In this document: piece by piece, positions 49,931 to 58,642 of the stretch | How positions within the stretch are numbered: position 1 is the stretch's first letter | Layout of the letters: every line of letters starts with the position of its first letter | DNA from: Eledone cirrhosa | Taxonomy: Eukaryota | Direction of reading: 5' to 3' | DNA: 64,000 bases | NCBI GenBank assembly: GCA_964016885.1 | Contig: OZ024741.1 | Coordinates: forward strand, 46,996,001-47,060,000 | The notes under the pieces: model-generated | What the model was told of the DNA's origin: nothing | The model's input: the letters and a program-made list of their open reading frames with translations, nothing else | Database searches by the model: none | Made by a program: the position numbers and the translations under genes

Positions 49931-51402
49931 CCCTTTAGCATTCACATTGAATTGTCAAATGTCATGTTCATCTATTCGCATTATTTTCACTTAATTATAC
50001 TCAAGAGGGTTATCAATTTTATTTGTTTGTAATTACTTTAATTTTCTATGTGCAGACTTGAAATTTTGTCAGTAGATGTTTAAATAACTATAATTTACAA
50101 TTATATATTTTTACCTGATTTTTTTTGTTAAATTTGACTTTTATGGGCAGGTGAAATTAATTAACAGGTGTAAAAGTAATAACTTTATGGATAAACACAA
50201 AAATTTAAACTTTATCTGCCTTATCTGTTAGATTTGTTGCAAAAAAATCCAATAATGACCTAGATGCTGATTTCCATCAATTCTAGCAGTTTTCTGAACA
50301 GGTGAATTAATTAAAAATGCAGGTGTAATCAGTACACGGTTTTAGTCTTTCTCTACATTCCAGGCAAATATTTTCATTGAAAAAAATATATAAAACCTTT
50401 TCACCGGTCAAAATAATATTGGCAATGTACTCTGTAAATGTACGGTGTAACATTACGTAATAGAAAGTTCCCAATATATAAGTTTATACACACTTTAAAA
50501 TTTTTCTGACAATATTTCAATTAATGGTCGTACTTTGTACAGTGGGTCGTAATTTGATTCATTTCTACCAGGGGCATTTGAAGTATCAACCAGATGCAAA
50601 TACTGGTTTAATTTAATGAATCTCGTTTTTGCCATAATACTAGATATATAAGGGTCACCAAACCTTATATCAGTACTCCAATAATTCCACAGTCGTGGAA
50701 ATTGTTTAATACCAAACATAATATTTATGGTAAAAAACGCTTTCATTTCGGCAGAATCTGTCGGACAACATAACAGATCGGGTTTTCCGATATTAGAAAT
50801 TTGTTGTTGTGCATAGCGATTTGGCACAACTTCGAAGAAAGATTATGGTAAAAATAAAAAATAATAATCCAGTGCTTTAGCATCGGGTGGTAATGTGTGT
50901 TGTGGTCCAATATTTTCAGTAAAATCCGAAACATGTATCGATGTTGTTTCTTTCAACCACATTGCTGTTTTTTCAATGGTGTCAGTTATATCTTCTCTTT
51001 CACTTTCAAAGTAACTATCATCATCATCATCAGATATATCAGAAATAAATATATCTGATTCGTTTGAAGATAAATCACTAATATTATCTTCTGTTTCTTT
51101 TTGATCTCGAATGCCGTCGGATGTAAAACCTTCAAATTCGTTGTTGCTACTTTCGGAAGCCATGTTACACTTTGAACGTTAAAAACGCGTGTTATCGCAA
51201 GTTCTTTAACTATACTAAGAGTTAATTTTCGCGCGTAAGGGCTTTATCTCGCAGTAATCTCGAATTGACGAGATTTCGATGATGTCAATGTTTATTTTTA
51301 GAAGGAAATCTCCGTGTGGTATTAAACGTCGGTTTTTGTCGGTTTGAATAAATGAAAGGGGACATAATCTTGTCGGTTTTTGTCGCTTTGAATGCTAAAG
51401 GG
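49931..51402 (-). mobile_element. Internally deleted piggyBac, same family
   Basis: TTAA TSDs (49927-49930, 51403-51406), same TIRs; transposase stops after LSEKF. Confidence 0.93.
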
Positions 51403-52111
51403 TTAAGGAAATTTTTTTCTTGAAAACTTACTGAAGGGTCTAAGAAAATCTTTTGAAAATTCCTTTGAAAAATATAGAAAAACTATACTTTTATATTATA
51501 TTTTCAAACGTTTTTAATATATATATATATCCAAATATTTAAATATGTGGAAAACATGATTTTTTATATATATATATGTGGTGTAACCTATGGTTTATGC
51601 TTTAAATATATTCTTAAGAAGATTTTTTAAATGTTTTAACTTTATAGCAAGTAAATTTTGTGACTTAGTATAAAATAACATAAGGTTCATGTTCTAATTA
51701 TATTCTTAAGATTGAAAATTTAACTTCTTAACTTTATAGCATTTAATCCCTAGAGTTCTTAAAAAATCACTTATAACTTCCTTTACACTTCCTTACTGTT
51801 TTTATAATATAACTAAGTGGTTATTCTTTTGTAAACTCTCGAAAATTTTCCATAAATTTAGAATTATTTGGATGTTTTAAATTTTTGACTTACAACTTTA
51901 AATAAAATAAACTATAATAGATTTGCTCTAATGTAAAATAATATATATTTTTTAATAACTTATAATCCTTAACATACACATTTAAACTAATTATTAATTT
52001 ATCAAATTAAATCTTTAATCTAATTTTTCAACCTATCATTATAAATATTATAATCAAAACATAACGAATCCTGCATTATAAATATTATTCCTCCACGCTA
52101 TTCTATTCTTA

Positions 52112-53161
52112 TCTTCATCAAAATCTCGTCAATTCAAGACTACTGCGAGATTAAGCCCTTACCACGAAAATTAACACTTAATATAGTGAAACAAGTTAAA
52201 ACAACATGTGTTTTTTTAACTTTGAAAGTAGAACAGATTTTTTTTTTGTATCAACATGGTTTCTGAAAGTAGCGATACCGACTTTGAAGGTTTACACACG
52301 ACATTCAGAATGAACAAGAAACAAAAGATAATATTAGTGATATATCATCAAATAAATCTGATGTTTATATTTCTGAAATTTCGTCCGACGAAGATTGTTA
52401 TTTTGAAAGTGAAAGCGAAGCAGATCTCCAGGGCGCCATTGAAGATATTTCAGCAACATGGTCGAAAAATACCATACCAATACATGTTCCTGATTTTGTT
52501 GAAAATACTGGTCTACAGCATATATTACCTCCCGATGCTAAGCACTGGATTATTTCTTTTTGTTTTTGCCACAAACTTTCTTCGAAGTTGTGGCAAAAGA
52601 GACGAATCAATATGCCCAACAGCAGATATATATCAAAGAAAACCTGATCAGTTATGGCGACCGACAGATGCTGCGGGGATGCAAGCGTTTTTTACCATAA
52701 ACATTATGTTTGGTATAAAACAATTTCCAAGACTGTGGAATTACTGGAGCACTGATATAATGTTTAGCGACCCTTATATATTGAGTATTATGCCCAAAAC
52801 AAGGTATTTGAAATTAAACCAATATTTGCATCTGGTTGATACTTCAAATGCCCCTGCTAGAAATGATTTCAATTATGACCCTCTGTATAAAATTCGACCA
52901 GTAATTTAAATGCTCTCGGAAAAATTTAAAACAGTGTATATACCTGGAAAAAATCTTAGTGTTGATGAAGCTATGATTGGGTATAAGGGTAGGATTCATT
53001 TTAGACAATACATGCCAGCTAAACCCACTAAATGGGGCATCAAGGTGTGGGAACTGTGTGAATCGGACACAGGCTACTGTGTAAACTTTGATGTTTACAC
53101 AGGAAAGAAACACAACGGAGAGAGAAAATATGGCTTGGGGTACAATGTTGTGTGGTCTCTG
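52112..53161 (+). mobile_element. Diverged piggyBac fragment without termini
   Basis: Homologous to ~46010-47040; interrupted at ~53162. Confidence 0.85.
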
Positions 53162-53900: not shown

Positions 53901-53949
<49 letters not shown>

Positions 53950-53957
53950 TATATACA
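53162..53957 (+). repeat. HHR-bearing PLE pseudo-LTR-like repeat, copy 1, with a 5' inverted segment (53162-53216)
   Basis: 53217-53957 matches 57792-58537 including the patterned (TA)n end; 53162-53216 is an inverted version of sequence starting at 57754. Confidence 0.85.
53659..53718 (+). ncRNA. Type I hammerhead ribozyme
   Basis: UUUUAUAGCU-CUGAAGA-AUCCUAC AGUUAC GUAAGGAA-GAAA-CAUUG-UA/AGCCAAUAAAA. Confidence 0.8.
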
Positions 53958-54057
53958 GGGGAACATCCACTCATGTAATAACACACTATATATTATATAT
54001 TATGTATTTCGCTATGTGTCGCCGAAAGGTTATTTGGAGGGAACTCTCAGAGAGAGA

Positions 54058-54161
54058 ATTTTTTTCTGTAGAAGTCTTCTCTATATGTGGTGTTTAGCAT
54101 GAATTCCTCCTGTAATACTCTTCTTTGAGAGGAGCACGATATGTGAAGTAACATATATGTA
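54058..54161. repeat. ~104-bp direct repeat, second copy at 56354-56456
   Basis: Identical apart from one substitution and T-run length. Confidence 0.95.
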
Positions 54162-54452
54162 AAGAGGGGGTTCATTAGTCTCCTCATGTTGGGATTCATA
54201 GCCTATTTCCATTTTTGTAGGTATCAAGCTGGAGTCAGGTAATTCGCCACTATACTCGTAGCTTGGTGTATTTTGAGGGTCATCTCCTCTTCCCATTCTG
54301 GATGTTTCTAGAAGTTCAGACACACGATTGCCCTCTGGAAGGGTAGTTGCACCAATGGCTCCACAGATTTCCTTAACGGAGCCTAAGGCTACTTTGTTTC
54401 CCTTGGCATAGTTGTATGATTTCCTGCACTGTCTCTGTCTATCTTGCGGCAT
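54162..54452 (-). pseudogene. Truncated second viral gene (P-like, 97 codons)
   Basis: ATG ~40 nt after the gene-start signal that follows N; S/E/P/D-rich; cut off by the 104-bp repeat; identity inferred from position only. Confidence 0.6.
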
Positions 54453-54481
54453 TTTGGGCAGTGGTTTTGTTAGTTAAGTAT

Positions 54482-54508
54482 GAAATCGAGTTAGTTTTTT
54501 TTTCTGAT
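54482..54508 (-). promoter_or_regulatory. Rhabdovirus-type gene junction (gene end / intergenic CT / gene start)
   Basis: mRNA sense ATCAGAAAAAAAAA-CT-AACTCGATTTC, compared with vesiculovirus TATGAAAAAAA-CT-AACAGNNATC; 72 nt after the N stop. Confidence 0.78.
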
Positions 54509-54580
54509 GCTGTACAATGTTATAAAAGTATGAAAAGTGATTGTATAAAAATAAAAAGTTAAGACCGTCTATAAAGTCCT

Positions 54581-55630
54581 TCAATGATACCCCCCAGATT
54601 TCTGTGCTTCTGTAACAGAATCATTAAAAGCCTGCCCCAATGTTCCGGGTCTAACTTTGCTAATCGCGCTTTTATTGAATGTTGAGATAAAACTTGTCGG
54701 ATTTGGAAACCTGTTCACCATCTCTACCATACTTTCCGAAATTCCAAAGCCTATCTGATTGAGATCTATATCTGGATCCTCATCAACTTGTCCTTCCTCA
54801 GCATAAAAGAAGACTTTGTGCGGTTTGGATCTATGAGCCACTCTGAATGCGAGCGCGTCAACCAGACCAGATTCAACATGTCCTGGCTCTATATTTCGGG
54901 AATGAACAAATCTTTTATCCTTGCTGAGGCAACCTATCATTCCGAAGAATGTGTGTAGATAGGGATTGGAGCCTGCTGAGAAAACACATTTTTTTATCAA
55001 GCCGAGAGATTTTTGATAAGGGAAGATTTCAGTATTAGCTGCCCCTGTATTCAGGGCTTTCAATACTCTCAACATTTCTGTAGCACCAGCCTCATTGATT
55101 ACGATACAGATCATATCTTCAAGCCTCAATTGGAGTGTTTTTCTGAAATGGTCGAGGACTTCTACTATGTGCATGCCCTCAAATCTGGTAAGAATTGTCC
55201 CTCTTCTCAAAAGGGATAGTTCATGATCCTCATGTTGAAATAGGAAATAATCCACGGAAGCCATAATCTGAAAGATTTGGTCATTTTTGACTATATGAGC
55301 TAGTGGTCCATTTATTAACATGTCGTGCATATACCGATATGGGTGCGTCATTCTATAATTGTTGAAATCCTTGACTAGATGTTGTTTGTAGTCACCCACT
55401 TCCAGGCTGGTGCCTGCATTTTCAACTTTGTACATGGTGACAATGTAAAGAAGAAGACCATGGTGATTACTGGGTGTTGAATCGGCCGCAGTTGGGGTCA
55501 GGAAGCTAGAGTCTTCATTAATTACAAAAAAATCGGCAGGACCCACTGACTGTCTTGTCTTCAAGAAATCGTATTGGAGCAAATCCTTATTAATATCAAA
55601 CATTAAGTACTTCTGGCAATATCGGACCAT
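54581..55630 (-). CDS. Endogenous rhabdovirus-like nucleoprotein (N), N-terminally incomplete
   Basis: By-eye match to VSV N as recalled: IMASVDYFLFQHEDHELSLLRRGTILTRF vs IVAAVDMFFHMFKKHECASFRYGTIVSRF; FPYQKSLGLIKKCVFSAGSNPYLH vs MPYLIDFGLSSKSPYSSVKNPAFH; VRPGTLG vs LREKTIG. Confidence 0.87.
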   Translation of the reverse strand: MVRYCQKYLMFDINKDLLQYDFLKTRQSVGPADFFVINEDSSFLTPTAADSTPSNHHGLLLYIVTMYKVENAGTSLEVGDYKQHLVKDFNNYRMTHPYRYMHDMLINGPLAHIVKNDQIFQIMASVDYFLFQHEDHELSLLRRGTILTRFEGMHIVEVLDHFRKTLQLRLEDMICIVINEAGATEMLRVLKALNTGAANTEIFPYQKSLGLIKKCVFSAGSNPYLHTFFGMIGCLSKDKRFVHSRNIEPGHVESGLVDALAFRVAHRSKPHKVFFYAEEGQVDEDPDIDLNQIGFGISESMVEMVNRFPNPTSFISTFNKSAISKVRPGTLGQAFNDSVTEAQKSGGYH

Positions 55631-55909
55631 AAAATGTAGGATATGCTTTGGAAGAATCTCCTGTGTATTGGATTTTGCAGCACCGTCTATATTTAGACTA
55701 TGTTAGCTGCACCCTTCTTTTTTTTTTTGCCTCTGTGTTTCTGCTTTTTCTTTGCCTTGTTTTTTATGCATGCATGTTTTTTTTTTTTAACATTTTTCAA
55801 ATCCTTATTCTGGATTCAACGTTTGGTAGAGCGAATAGCTCCCCCTTGTTGCATTGTTCACCATCTTACTCCACATGTGAGTAATGACATCGATTTTCGA
55901 TGATTTGAA

Positions 55910-57400
55910 AATCTGGCAGGCAGTACTGTAGTAAGACGCCTCACGCCAGGATAATAGAACAACCCTAGTTATCTCCCGCTGGTTGAAAACACGAGAAGTA
56001 AACAGACAGCCACGAGAAAGCAGACTGATCACACGCCAGAAAACAGCCTCTGTACCACGCCACAGAAAGGGAACAGCAAACAATAAACCCCACAATACTT
56101 TTGTAATGGTAATACGTTCCTTTCACCACAACTGACCATGTCAACATTTGGTACGTTCCATTTGTAGTATAAATAAATCACCATTATTTACAATTGTTGA
56201 CTTTAACTCTCGTTGTGGTTATTGTCTTGTTTGCGCACACACTCACTCACTTTGTTATAATTCTCACAAACACAAAATGGTAAATAGACGAGGGACCTTC
56301 CCTCACGTCTATGTCAATAAACTATCCAACTAGGATACATTACATTTTACCACATTTTTTCTGTAGAAGTCTTCTCTATATGTGGTGTTTAGCATGAATT
56401 CCTCCTGTAATACTCTTCTTTGAGAGGAGCACGATATGTAAAGTAACATATATGTATTGTCGCAGTGGAAACTGAGAACCACCTCCTCTCCTGCTGACCC
56501 AAATGTATACTGAAGACCAGAACACCACTTTCCACAATATAAGAGAAGAATGCGGTTGCCGGAATATTGATGACCAAAACATCACAATCCAAGGTCATGG
56601 CAAAACACAGTGACTGGTAAACACGACCTAAACATCACAACATGGACATCGGAACAACAGAGATCTAGGAATATCAGATATAATATCAATAAGAGCATCA
56701 ATTGAATTTTTATCGCGTTGAAATACATTTAAATATGTGTCTGTGTGTATCAGACACACGTACACACGAAGAAACTGGTGACCTAAATGTACTTGTCATG
56801 CCTGACCGAATTCCCAGGAGAATTTTCGGTCAGTTGCTATCTTGACTGCTTGCCCTCACAGTTACTACGTAGCAGTTCTTGCACGTGACTGCTAGACCCG
56901 GATGAAACGAAGACGAAGAATTTCCTTGCGTACCGTTATTTACCACAGATGCGATTTCACTCTGCCTCATTAATGTTCAATCAACACCAAAGTTCTATGT
57001 TCTGGGCAATAGATTTGAATCCAATCACCGATAACATAGTTGGATGACCGATAATCAAACCGAACCGGAGTACTGTGATCCTTGTGATTTTGAGAAATAC
57101 AACCATTGATAGTGTATCGAAGACCAGAAAACCATACTCCATAATATAGAACCAAGTGACTGATTTATGCGACCATAATAACACTACACACATATTGGGT
57201 CAGCAACGAACTAGGAATATTGGATGCTCCGTCAATGACCGGGTAAGCACAAATAGAATTCTATTTGCATTGAAATATACGAACTTGCGAATCTGTTGTG
57301 AGGTCGAACGCAAACACACACGACCGCACAGATAAGCGATGGACTATGCTCTATGGGTTGGACTTGCAAGTGCATTGAAAGATGTGTAACTCGAGTATAC
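55910..57400 (+). mobile_element. Two ancient, decayed RTE-like RT remnants (~55910-56940 and ~56940-57400)
   Basis: Segments are homologous (GAAGACCAGAA.ACCA at ~56512 and ~57119; CTAGGAATAT in both); relic motifs LFAHT (FADD position), FYVLG, MPDRIPRRIFGQL, MLYGL. Confidence 0.45.
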
Positions 57401-57488
57401 ATATTATTTATTATTAAGATGTATAAACTTGACACACTTATTATCATCTTATATTCTCTCAACTAATCACATTATGATTATATTTCTC

Positions 57489-57673
57489 GGGTGGTGGATT
57501 GGCAGTATCGGTAGAGGGTCGGACGTCATGCTTTCCAGCATAGTTACGTCCCTTTACGATCTGAGTTCAAATCCCGCCGAGGTTGACTTTGCCTTTCATC
57601 CTTACGGGGTCGATAAAATAAAGTACCAATAATGCACTGTGTAATTGCTGGCCTTGTGCCTAAAGTAGAAACA
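57489..57673 (+). mobile_element. tRNA-derived SINE with 18-bp TSD
   Basis: TSD ATTATGATTATATTTCTC at 57471-57488 and 57674-57691; A box TGGCAGTATCGG, B box GTTCAAATCC. Confidence 0.9.
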
Positions 57674-57753
57674 ATTATGATTATATTTCTCTCTCCCGTT
57701 TTCTCCTCCCATATTTATAATATTTTTATTTAACAAAATCTGTTTTTTTACAT

Positions 57754-58492
57754 TGTGTTTTTCCCTTTCTGATACTTGCTTATATTTTTTATATATTCTC
57801 TATATATTTTTTATATATTTTTTTATTTTTACTTTTATTCTCATTTTTATCCTCCCTATATTTTATTTTATTCTTACTTTTATATCTTATTATAGTGTAA
57901 TCTTCCCTATGCCTTATTATACATTATTAACGATAAATTATTATTATTATTATTCCATTTCTAATTACCTCATGTACTTTCTCCTCCGTTATATATATAT
58001 TATATGCCCTTTGTGTGTGGTGTGTAGCCTCTGCACACCCTCTGCACCCTACTATCAATGCCACCCCATCTATGGCTCCACTAACCACTCGACTCCCGGG
58101 AATGAATATGACCACAGCTAGTAAACAAGGACCCACACCCCACTCTTCCACACCTAAATTAGAATTATTGTCTCCTGCTTTTGCTCTTTACTCTCTTTAC
58201 TCTTTGTTCTTGAATGTTTGGTTGGTAGAGTCCATAACACCAATCAAAACCCTTTTATAGCTCTGAAGAATCCTACGGTTACGTAAGGAAGAAACATTGT
58301 AAGCCAATAAAAAATGTTTGATGTTGTAGACGCTCTTGTGTTCTTTATCATATATACGGCTCTGCTCCAAAGCATTGAGCTTATTATTATACTGCCAATA
58401 CTTTAATGGGACATGGGTATACAATGCCTAACCTAAGTATATATATATATATACTATATACATATATATATACTATATACATATATATAGAG

Positions 58493-58531
<39 letters not shown>

Positions 58532-58537
58532 TATATA
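57754..58537 (+). repeat. HHR-bearing PLE pseudo-LTR-like repeat, copy 2
   Basis: Direct repeat of 53217-53957 with a few indels, e.g. a 20-bp segment missing from copy 1. Confidence 0.85.
58253..58312 (+). ncRNA. Type I hammerhead ribozyme
   Basis: As 53659-53718 with one loop II change (GGUUAC). Confidence 0.8.
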
Positions 58538-58577
58538 CATATATATATATATACAGTATATACATATATATATACAG

Positions 58578-58642
<65 letters not shown>

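What the first reader, a model, noticed from the sequence alone, without database searches (positions are those of the whole stretch)
54581..55702. Endogenous nucleoprotein of a divergent rhabdovirus in a probable cephalopod genome
Seen: a 349-aa ORF, open for 24 more codons upstream to a TAA, with no internal lesion while most neighbouring elements are frameshifted. Known: its blocks align by eye with vesiculovirus N, but the usual GLSxKSPYSS motif reads GLIKKCVFSA, which points to a distant lineage. Inference: recent germline integration or selection for the protein. If the host is a cephalopod, this may record a little-known mollusc-infecting rhabdovirus.
Basis: partly seen in the sequence, partly recalled or inferred. 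Interest (0 to 1): 0.85.

Follow-up and report, generated by a model that had tools for sequence, protein, structure and literature searches.

The report
Rhabdovirus fossil in an octopus genome
A clipped piece of an undescribed rabies-family virus sits in this octopus-type genome, joined to a jumping gene that likely copied it into the germline; it records a virus lineage that probably infected octopods repeatedly, and it is likely a fossil rather than a working protein.

Summary
The ORF is real and encodes a rhabdovirus nucleoprotein (Pfam E 2e-21; modelled fold matches VSV, SVCV and rabies N). It is not an intact gene. Its first ~10 codons are the antisense end of a Ty3/Gypsy pol gene, about 61 viral codons including the start are missing, and it stops slightly early. 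The insert runs Gypsy 3' LTR, N, an N-P gene junction, then part of P. It lies inside a host repeat with a 102-bp target duplication, which fits template-switch capture and one-ended integration. The host is an octopod (haemocyanin). Three further individuals carry the Gypsy-N junction. The genome holds this N family at 9 loci, plus an L gene with the same Gypsy/long-duplication build. Related N sequences occur in Octopus bimaculoides and Argonauta hians; together they form one well-supported clade only ~23% identical to other rhabdovirus N proteins. Youth explains the open frame; selection on the protein is not shown (6 synonymous, 9 non-synonymous changes against its sister copy). The locus lies in a strand-biased transposon cluster, so a piRNA role is possible but untested. 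Verdict: a known kind of element recording an apparently undescribed octopod rhabdovirus lineage.

The parts
54581..55702 (-). Chimeric open frame, 373 codons: about 10 Gypsy-derived codons plus truncated rhabdovirus N; first Met at 55630
54581..55677 (-). Viral N part (about residues 62 onward of the natural protein); 55672-55677 overlaps the Gypsy sequence (about 6-nt shared stretch, inferred from paralogues)
54482..54509 (-). Rhabdovirus-type gene junction: gene end with A9, CT spacer, AAC gene start
   Evidence: sequence; VSV pattern recalled
54159..54452 (-). 5' part of the next viral gene, P by position (no Pfam match); continues to a poly(A) tract in the C219 copy
55672..55925 (+). Last codons of Ty3/Gypsy pol, 3' UTR and probable polypurine tract
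55926..56354 (+). Gypsy 3' LTR, ending exactly at the insertion boundary in CA
54060..54161 (+). Left copy of the 102-bp target duplication (1 mismatch)
56355..56456 (+). Right copy of the 102-bp target duplication
53949..58600 (+). High-copy host repeat that received the insert; 5 of 5 other copies examined are uninterrupted at this site

Best explanation
This is a truncated rhabdovirus N gene with part of the next gene, joined antisense to the 3' end of a Ty3/Gypsy LTR retrotransposon in an octopod genome; it was likely captured by template switching during Gypsy reverse transcription, likely integrated one-ended in the germline, and is likely a non-coding fossil. Shown: viral identity, Gypsy junction, precise LTR end, 102-bp target duplication, sister copy on C219, presence in further individuals. 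Inferred steps: (1) Gypsy RT left its own template at the end of pol and copied a viral RNA spanning N and P (genome, antigenome or read-through transcript, because the N-P junction is kept). In the C219 copy it returned to the Gypsy 3' UTR at an A/T tract, repeating 54 nt. (2) The chimeric cDNA integrated at two sites. Here integrase would have joined the LTR end and host repair the viral end, giving the long duplication. (3) The frame is open because the insertion is young (roughly 1-7 Myr on an assumed rate of 2-5e-9 per site per year). Any present role would most likely be as a piRNA source.
For: Pfam and PDB matches. AlphaFold2 model with 126-row alignment, pLDDT 91, hits only rhabdovirus N at E<=0.001 among the rows listed. 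55672-56354 matches the pol end and 3' LTR of two full Gypsy elements. Empty-site copies of the target repeat. C219 re-entry into the Gypsy UTR. 7 of 9 N loci and the L locus lie against Gypsy LTRs. The L locus has the same build with a 245-bp duplication. One-ended integration with long duplications is documented for retroviruses (PMC5041404 passages); Gypsy-rhabdovirus EVE association and template switching are described in Aedes (10.1101/127498 passages). Missing start and first ~61 codons. Amino-acid differences to the frameshifted sister split 4/4/1.
Against: dN to the sister copy (9 of 801 sites) is below pooled LTR+UTR+synonymous divergence (26 of 895), Fisher p 0.01, though the LTR can be exchanged with other family members. 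Two other sister pairs show synonymous excess (13 S/10 N, p<=0.006; 7 S/4 N, p<=0.02). RT versus repair steps and RNA polarity are not directly observable. No LTR from my three-family library was found at 2 of 9 N loci.
Confidence: 0.82

Rival explanations
1. The locus is kept as an antiviral small-RNA template: it lies in a one-directional piRNA cluster and yields piRNAs against the cognate virus. Compatible with the best explanation for origin, different in present function.
For: 34 of 43 transposon fragments in 264 kb around it lie on the + strand (p 1.7e-4; flanks alone 21 of 26), against 16 of 35 in 400 kb of controls; density is also higher. A second N copy lies 62 kb upstream of the window. 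Molluscs have somatic and germline piRNA clusters rich in Gypsy (PMC6128900 passages). Both copies appear in 3 of 3 further individuals.
Against: No small-RNA data. The two N copies in the cluster lie on opposite strands. Two other EVE neighbourhoods show no strand bias (8/7 and 10/8). The transposon library came from this window, which inflates its density. A long intron could also give strand bias.
Confidence: 0.25
2. The truncated N is a co-opted protein, for example a dominant-negative restriction factor, kept by selection.
For: Open frame; confident fold; conserved R142, T145, R149, Y205, S218, R240; omega 0.39 to the sister copy.
Against: No viral start; first Met in weak context, T at -3. 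The LTR faces away from N. Omega not significant. Changes split evenly with a frameshifted sister. Only 2 of 9 loci have a near-full open frame.
Confidence: 0.08
3. The virus infected a parasite or symbiont of the octopus rather than octopod cells, and its RNA reached the germline incidentally.
For: No live virus of this clade was identified; parasites carry rhabdoviruses (listing).
Against: Capture needs viral RNA beside host Gypsy RT in germline cells. It happened repeatedly with several variants (60-78% amino-acid identity), and relatives occur in two other octopod genera.
Confidence: 0.07
4. Assembly artefact or contamination by viral sequence.
For: The sister copy lies on a 92-kb unplaced contig with several frameshifts.
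Against: The window lies on a 416-Mb contig. A short-read contig bridges the left junction (X1; possibly the assembly's own sample). Raw DNA reads of three other samples cross the Gypsy-N junction.
Confidence: 0.01

Closest known systems
Non-retroviral EVEs of Aedes aegypti (Rhabdoviridae N/G with Ty3/gypsy, in piRNA clusters; 10.1101/127498, passages)
   Same: Rhabdovirus N cargo, Ty3/Gypsy partner, proposed template switching, location in a strand-biased transposon cluster.
   Different: Cephalopod host. Here cargo is antisense to the Gypsy in 5 of 6 independent captures with an identified LTR (not significant), whereas same orientation is enriched in Aedes. No piRNA data here.
Rhabdoviridae nucleoprotein (PF00945; VSV, SVCV, rabies N)
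   Same: Profile, fold (TM 0.62-0.69 to solved N) and conserved basic residues.
   Different: About 20% identity; S-P-Y-S replaced by C/S/R-V/I-F-S in all octopod copies covering the motif; N-terminal part absent in this copy.
Database relatives in Octopus bimaculoides (UniRef A0A0L8FVJ3) and Argonauta hians (GAB1603531.1, GAB1610042.1)
   Same: Same clade, 41-53% identity, SH-aLRT 99.
   Different: Automatic annotations only; their genomic context was not examined.
Bivalve rhabdoviruses killamcar virus 1 (Uniorhavirus) and chemarfal virus 1 (Margarhavirus) (PMC12282299 passages)
   Same: Mollusc-associated rhabdoviruses.
   Different: The L EVE is 48% identical to killamcar L in the core, no closer than to others (45-52%). 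It does not group with it in the best tree, but that grouping is not rejected (p-AU 0.138). Chemarfal virus was not among the listed hits.
One-ended (aberrant) retroviral integration (PMC5041404 passages)
   Same: One normal LTR end, one truncated end, long duplication of host DNA.
   Different: Described for ASLV/HIV under mutation or drug; here inferred for natural Gypsy-virus chimeras at two loci.

Membership tests
Rhabdoviridae nucleoprotein | PF00945 above gathering threshold | tested here: met
   76.8 bits vs cut-off 26
Rhabdoviridae nucleoprotein | Two-lobed helical N fold closest to rhabdovirus N | tested here: met
   pLDDT 91; top PDB and BFVD hits are rhabdovirus N, other Mononegavirales only at E>0.009. 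The alignment used held rhabdovirus N, so this is not fully independent.
Rhabdoviridae nucleoprotein | G(L/I)SxKSPYSS-type motif (recalled) | tested here: inconclusive
   G, L, K, S and the N-P after it kept; SPY replaced; only 57 of 115 other N rows hold SPYS
Rhabdoviridae nucleoprotein | Complete gene with own start and N-terminal arm | tested here: not met
   About 61 codons missing. Derived from N, not a complete N gene.
Rhabdoviridae (source virus) | Gene order N-P-M-G-L with conserved junctions | tested here: inconclusive
   N then a second gene with a junction; L elsewhere; no G match (control also blank); M not searched
Any named genus of Alpharhabdovirinae | Supported clade with genus members in L or N trees | tested here: not met
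   L EVE on a 1.6 branch in no starred set, median 38% identity vs 44-50% among references; N clade separate. No outgroup; linking L to N is assumed.
Non-retroviral endogenous viral element | Chromosomal, host-flanked, inherited | tested here: met
Gypsy-mediated EVE | Direct junction with LTR-element sequence and an LTR terminus at the insertion site | tested here: met
Gypsy-mediated EVE | 4-6 bp target duplication | tested here: not met
   102 bp instead, as in one-ended integration
piRNA-cluster EVE | piRNA production from the locus | not testable with these tools
   No RNA run listed; only strand bias tested
Domesticated viral gene | Purifying selection after integration | tested here: inconclusive
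   6 S/9 N, p 0.08-0.27; 4/4/1 split
Domesticated viral gene | Expression as protein | not testable with these tools
   no RNA or proteomic data

The most novel reading that the evidence does not exclude
Octopods carry their own deep-branching rhabdovirus lineage, a new genus or higher, that has reached the germline repeatedly up to the last few million years. Gypsy elements capture its genes, re-mobilise them as non-autonomous chimeras, and deposit them in a one-directional piRNA cluster, giving a cephalopod heritable antiviral memory like that of mosquitoes.
Probability: 0.2. Interest if true: 0.75.

Novelty: new member of a known kind. Interest (0 to 1): 0.5.

Why it matters
I found no paper describing a cephalopod rhabdovirus or cephalopod rhabdovirus EVEs (searches; library limited, supplements not read). 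These fossils show that such a lineage existed across at least three octopod genomes and give probes to look for a living virus, relevant to octopus health and aquaculture. The junctions are unusually readable: capture at the end of pol, re-entry into the Gypsy UTR, and two one-ended integrations with 102- and 245-bp duplications. They extend the Gypsy route of EVE formation from insects to molluscs and make the piRNA-memory question testable in a cephalopod.

Tried and rejected
Word-indexed protein search with the window N found nothing (1741 candidates; shorter lengths 567 candidates); the full HMMER search then did. ESM Atlas gave no hit at 0.9 or above. Single-sequence AlphaFold failed, pLDDT 33. 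No relative in JGI metagenomes (47 stretches) or IMG/VR (17 stretches). No G-protein match in the genome, control also blank. No RNA holder listed. Earlier scan notes: none. The L tree could not be rooted; the third AU test did not finish. The bacterial promoter scan is irrelevant to this host. A recurrent capture site at 55672 was considered from mixed loose read ends: of 6 exact pattern matches, the 4 outside the window and C219 had Gypsy pol sequence directly upstream, so not supported. C219 as a haplotig of this locus was rejected: its flanks share only repeats with the 264-kb region. ADAR hyper-editing as the cause of copy differences was rejected: no A/G or T/C dominance. LINE-type insertion was considered for the long duplication but rejected because the boundary is the exact LTR end. 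Goldberg et al. 2023 was not held; only its citation was seen.

Full report
Observation. The frame 54581-55702 (-) is open for 373 codons, far beyond chance. It matches Pfam Rhabdo_ncap at E 2e-21 and VSV, SVCV and lyssavirus N in the PDB. An AlphaFold2 model built on a 126-row alignment has mean pLDDT 91. Foldseek ranks VSV, SVCV and rabies N first (TM 0.62-0.69); among the listed rows other Mononegavirales appear only above E 0.009.

The ORF is a chimera. Bases 55672-56354 match the end of pol, the 3' UTR and the 3' LTR of two full-length Ty3/Gypsy elements fetched from other contigs. The first ~10 codons of the frame are therefore Gypsy read antisense. Viral similarity to paralogues reaches 55677, so the partners overlap by about 6 nt. 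Counted on a paralogue that keeps its own start, the viral part begins near residue 62 and the first Met near residue 77. Near the stop the window differs from its sister copy by small gaps and ends about 9 codons earlier than two paralogues. Downstream of N lie a gene-end/CT/gene-start junction (54482-54509; VSV pattern recalled) and the first ~97 codons of a second gene, P by position, with no Pfam match.

Insertion site. The insert sits in a high-copy host repeat. All 5 other copies examined are uninterrupted there. One boundary is the exact LTR end at 56354; the other lies in viral P sequence; 102 bp of target are duplicated with one mismatch. An L-gene EVE on C3 shows the same build: LTR terminus at one side, viral sequence at the other, and a 245-bp duplication with 2 mismatches. 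Passages of PMC5041404 describe this pattern when integrase joins one end and host repair the other.

Sister copy. Contig C219 holds the same LTR-N-P junctions at 96% overall identity but with unrelated flanks. There P continues to a poly(A) tract that coincides with the T-tract of the Gypsy UTR, and the sequence re-enters Gypsy, repeating 54 nt. That is the signature expected from a template switch out and back. Because the N-P junction is retained, the template was genome, antigenome or a read-through transcript; polarity cannot be told.

It is real and inherited. Three contig sets of one sample (possibly the assembly's own) hold it, one bridging the left junction. RAD reads of three other samples cross the Gypsy-N junction. 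All three show both the window and the C219 base at 55545 (102 of 206, 96 of 239, 107 of 266 reads; few distinct starts).

Host. The genome (3.0 Gb) has molluscan haemocyanin genes with seven functional-unit matches each (seven units as the octopod pattern is recalled). Among single-unit PDB chains, one unit scores 855 bits against 1JS8 (octopus, recalled), 738 against 4YD9_C (squid, recalled) and 488 against a gastropod unit; a second gene scores about equally against the first two.

Family. A protein search gave 19 matches that group into 9 loci, one a five-unit tandem array, at 60-78% identity apart from the sister copy. A more distant, decayed N lies on C1. Seven of the 9 loci and the L locus abut Gypsy LTRs of three families. 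Cargo is antisense in 5 of 6 independent captures. C4 and C5 copies share both junctions but have different flanks, so chimeras were integrated more than once. HMMER over 1.84 billion representatives gave 241 hits, 5 of them far closer than the rest: one from O. bimaculoides, two from Argonauta hians, two unnamed, 41-53% identical against 23-26% for the next. In a quick tree of 104 rows (7 own copies plus 97 of the 150 listed hits, filtered by length and rank), the 11 rows of this group form one side of a branch, SH-aLRT 99, stem 0.67. The altered motif is shared by all of them that cover it, so it is a viral-lineage trait. The L EVE is 45-52% identical to the 120 listed L proteins and sits on a long unplaced branch among 40 references. 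Grouping with the mussel virus killamcar is neither found nor rejected. That L and N come from the same lineage is assumed.

Selection. Window versus C219 N: 15 substitutions in 1076 nt, 6 synonymous and 9 non-synonymous, omega 0.39, p 0.08-0.27. Amino-acid differences split 4/4/1. Simulation leaves the frame open in 15-85% of runs at 5.5-7.5 substitutions, and 2-61% at 16. Two of 9 loci have a near-full open frame. Against this, dN is lower than pooled non-coding and synonymous divergence (p 0.01), and two other sister pairs show synonymous excess. In the C4/C5 pair dN (1.7%) equals non-coding divergence (11 of 552) while dS is 7.5%; this fits recombination with a different viral variant better than host selection, and remains unexplained. 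Cross-lineage pairs have omega 0.04-0.08, as expected for evolution as a virus.

Neighbourhood. In 264 kb around the locus, 34 of 43 transposon fragments lie on the + strand, against 16 of 35 in four control blocks; two other EVE regions are unbiased. This resembles a one-directional piRNA cluster. Molluscs have such clusters, but no RNA data were available.

Literature seen: passages of PMC12282299, 10.1101/127498, PMC5041404 and PMC6128900; term look-ups in PMC13469297 and PMC11662614 (no 'rhabdovir') and in PMC12548735 and PMC10101049 (no 'octopus' or 'cephalopod'); otherwise search listings only. Supplementary tables of large virome screens were not read and could list octopus sequences.

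Verdict. A young, truncated, Gypsy-captured rhabdovirus EVE: a known kind of element, probably not a protein-coding gene, but good evidence for an apparently undescribed octopod rhabdovirus clade. Interest 0.5.

Noticed in passing
G000:C3:130159731-130173709 (L034, L047-L049): A near-full rhabdovirus L gene with few breaks lies antisense in the 3' region of a Gypsy element, with a 245-bp target duplication.
   Followed up: partly
G000:C28:117475300-117485400 (L060, L029): Five-unit tandem array, period about 1.8 kb, of a half N gene plus Gypsy 3' region; the edge unit differs from inner units mostly at synonymous sites.
   Followed up: partly
G000:C4:337138188-337140512 and C5:74852433-74854195: Same LTR-N-LTR chimera at two sites with different flanks; dS exceeds non-coding divergence about fourfold.
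   Followed up: partly
G000:C2:336020813-336024293: N in sense orientation replaces most of pol between two LTRs, after gag and protease.
   Followed up: partly
G000:C2:46.90-47.16 Mb: Transposon-dense region with about 80% of fragments on one strand and two N EVEs; candidate piRNA cluster.
   Followed up: partly
G000:C1:314565714-314566028; C23:16221471-16222608; C3:37502164; C27:16995901: Further decayed N and L fragments, some from more distant Mononegavirales lineages.
   Followed up: no
P0182 (RUS81813.1): A rhabdovirus N-like protein annotated in the sea slug Elysia chlorotica on a 504-kb contig, outside the octopod clade; probably another mollusc EVE.
   Followed up: no
window:48000-50410 and 50482-52943: Large inverted duplications of piggyBac-like and other repeat sequence (arms 146-306 nt, 84-99% complementary).
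   Followed up: no
window:9583-12072 (-): 830-codon open frame of a Penelope-like element (by eye; no Pfam match at E 0.001).
   Followed up: no
G000:C1:173.74-173.91 Mb and C26:21.93-22.02 Mb: Several tandem or inverted haemocyanin gene copies; three copies show a stop in the same unit match.
   Followed up: no
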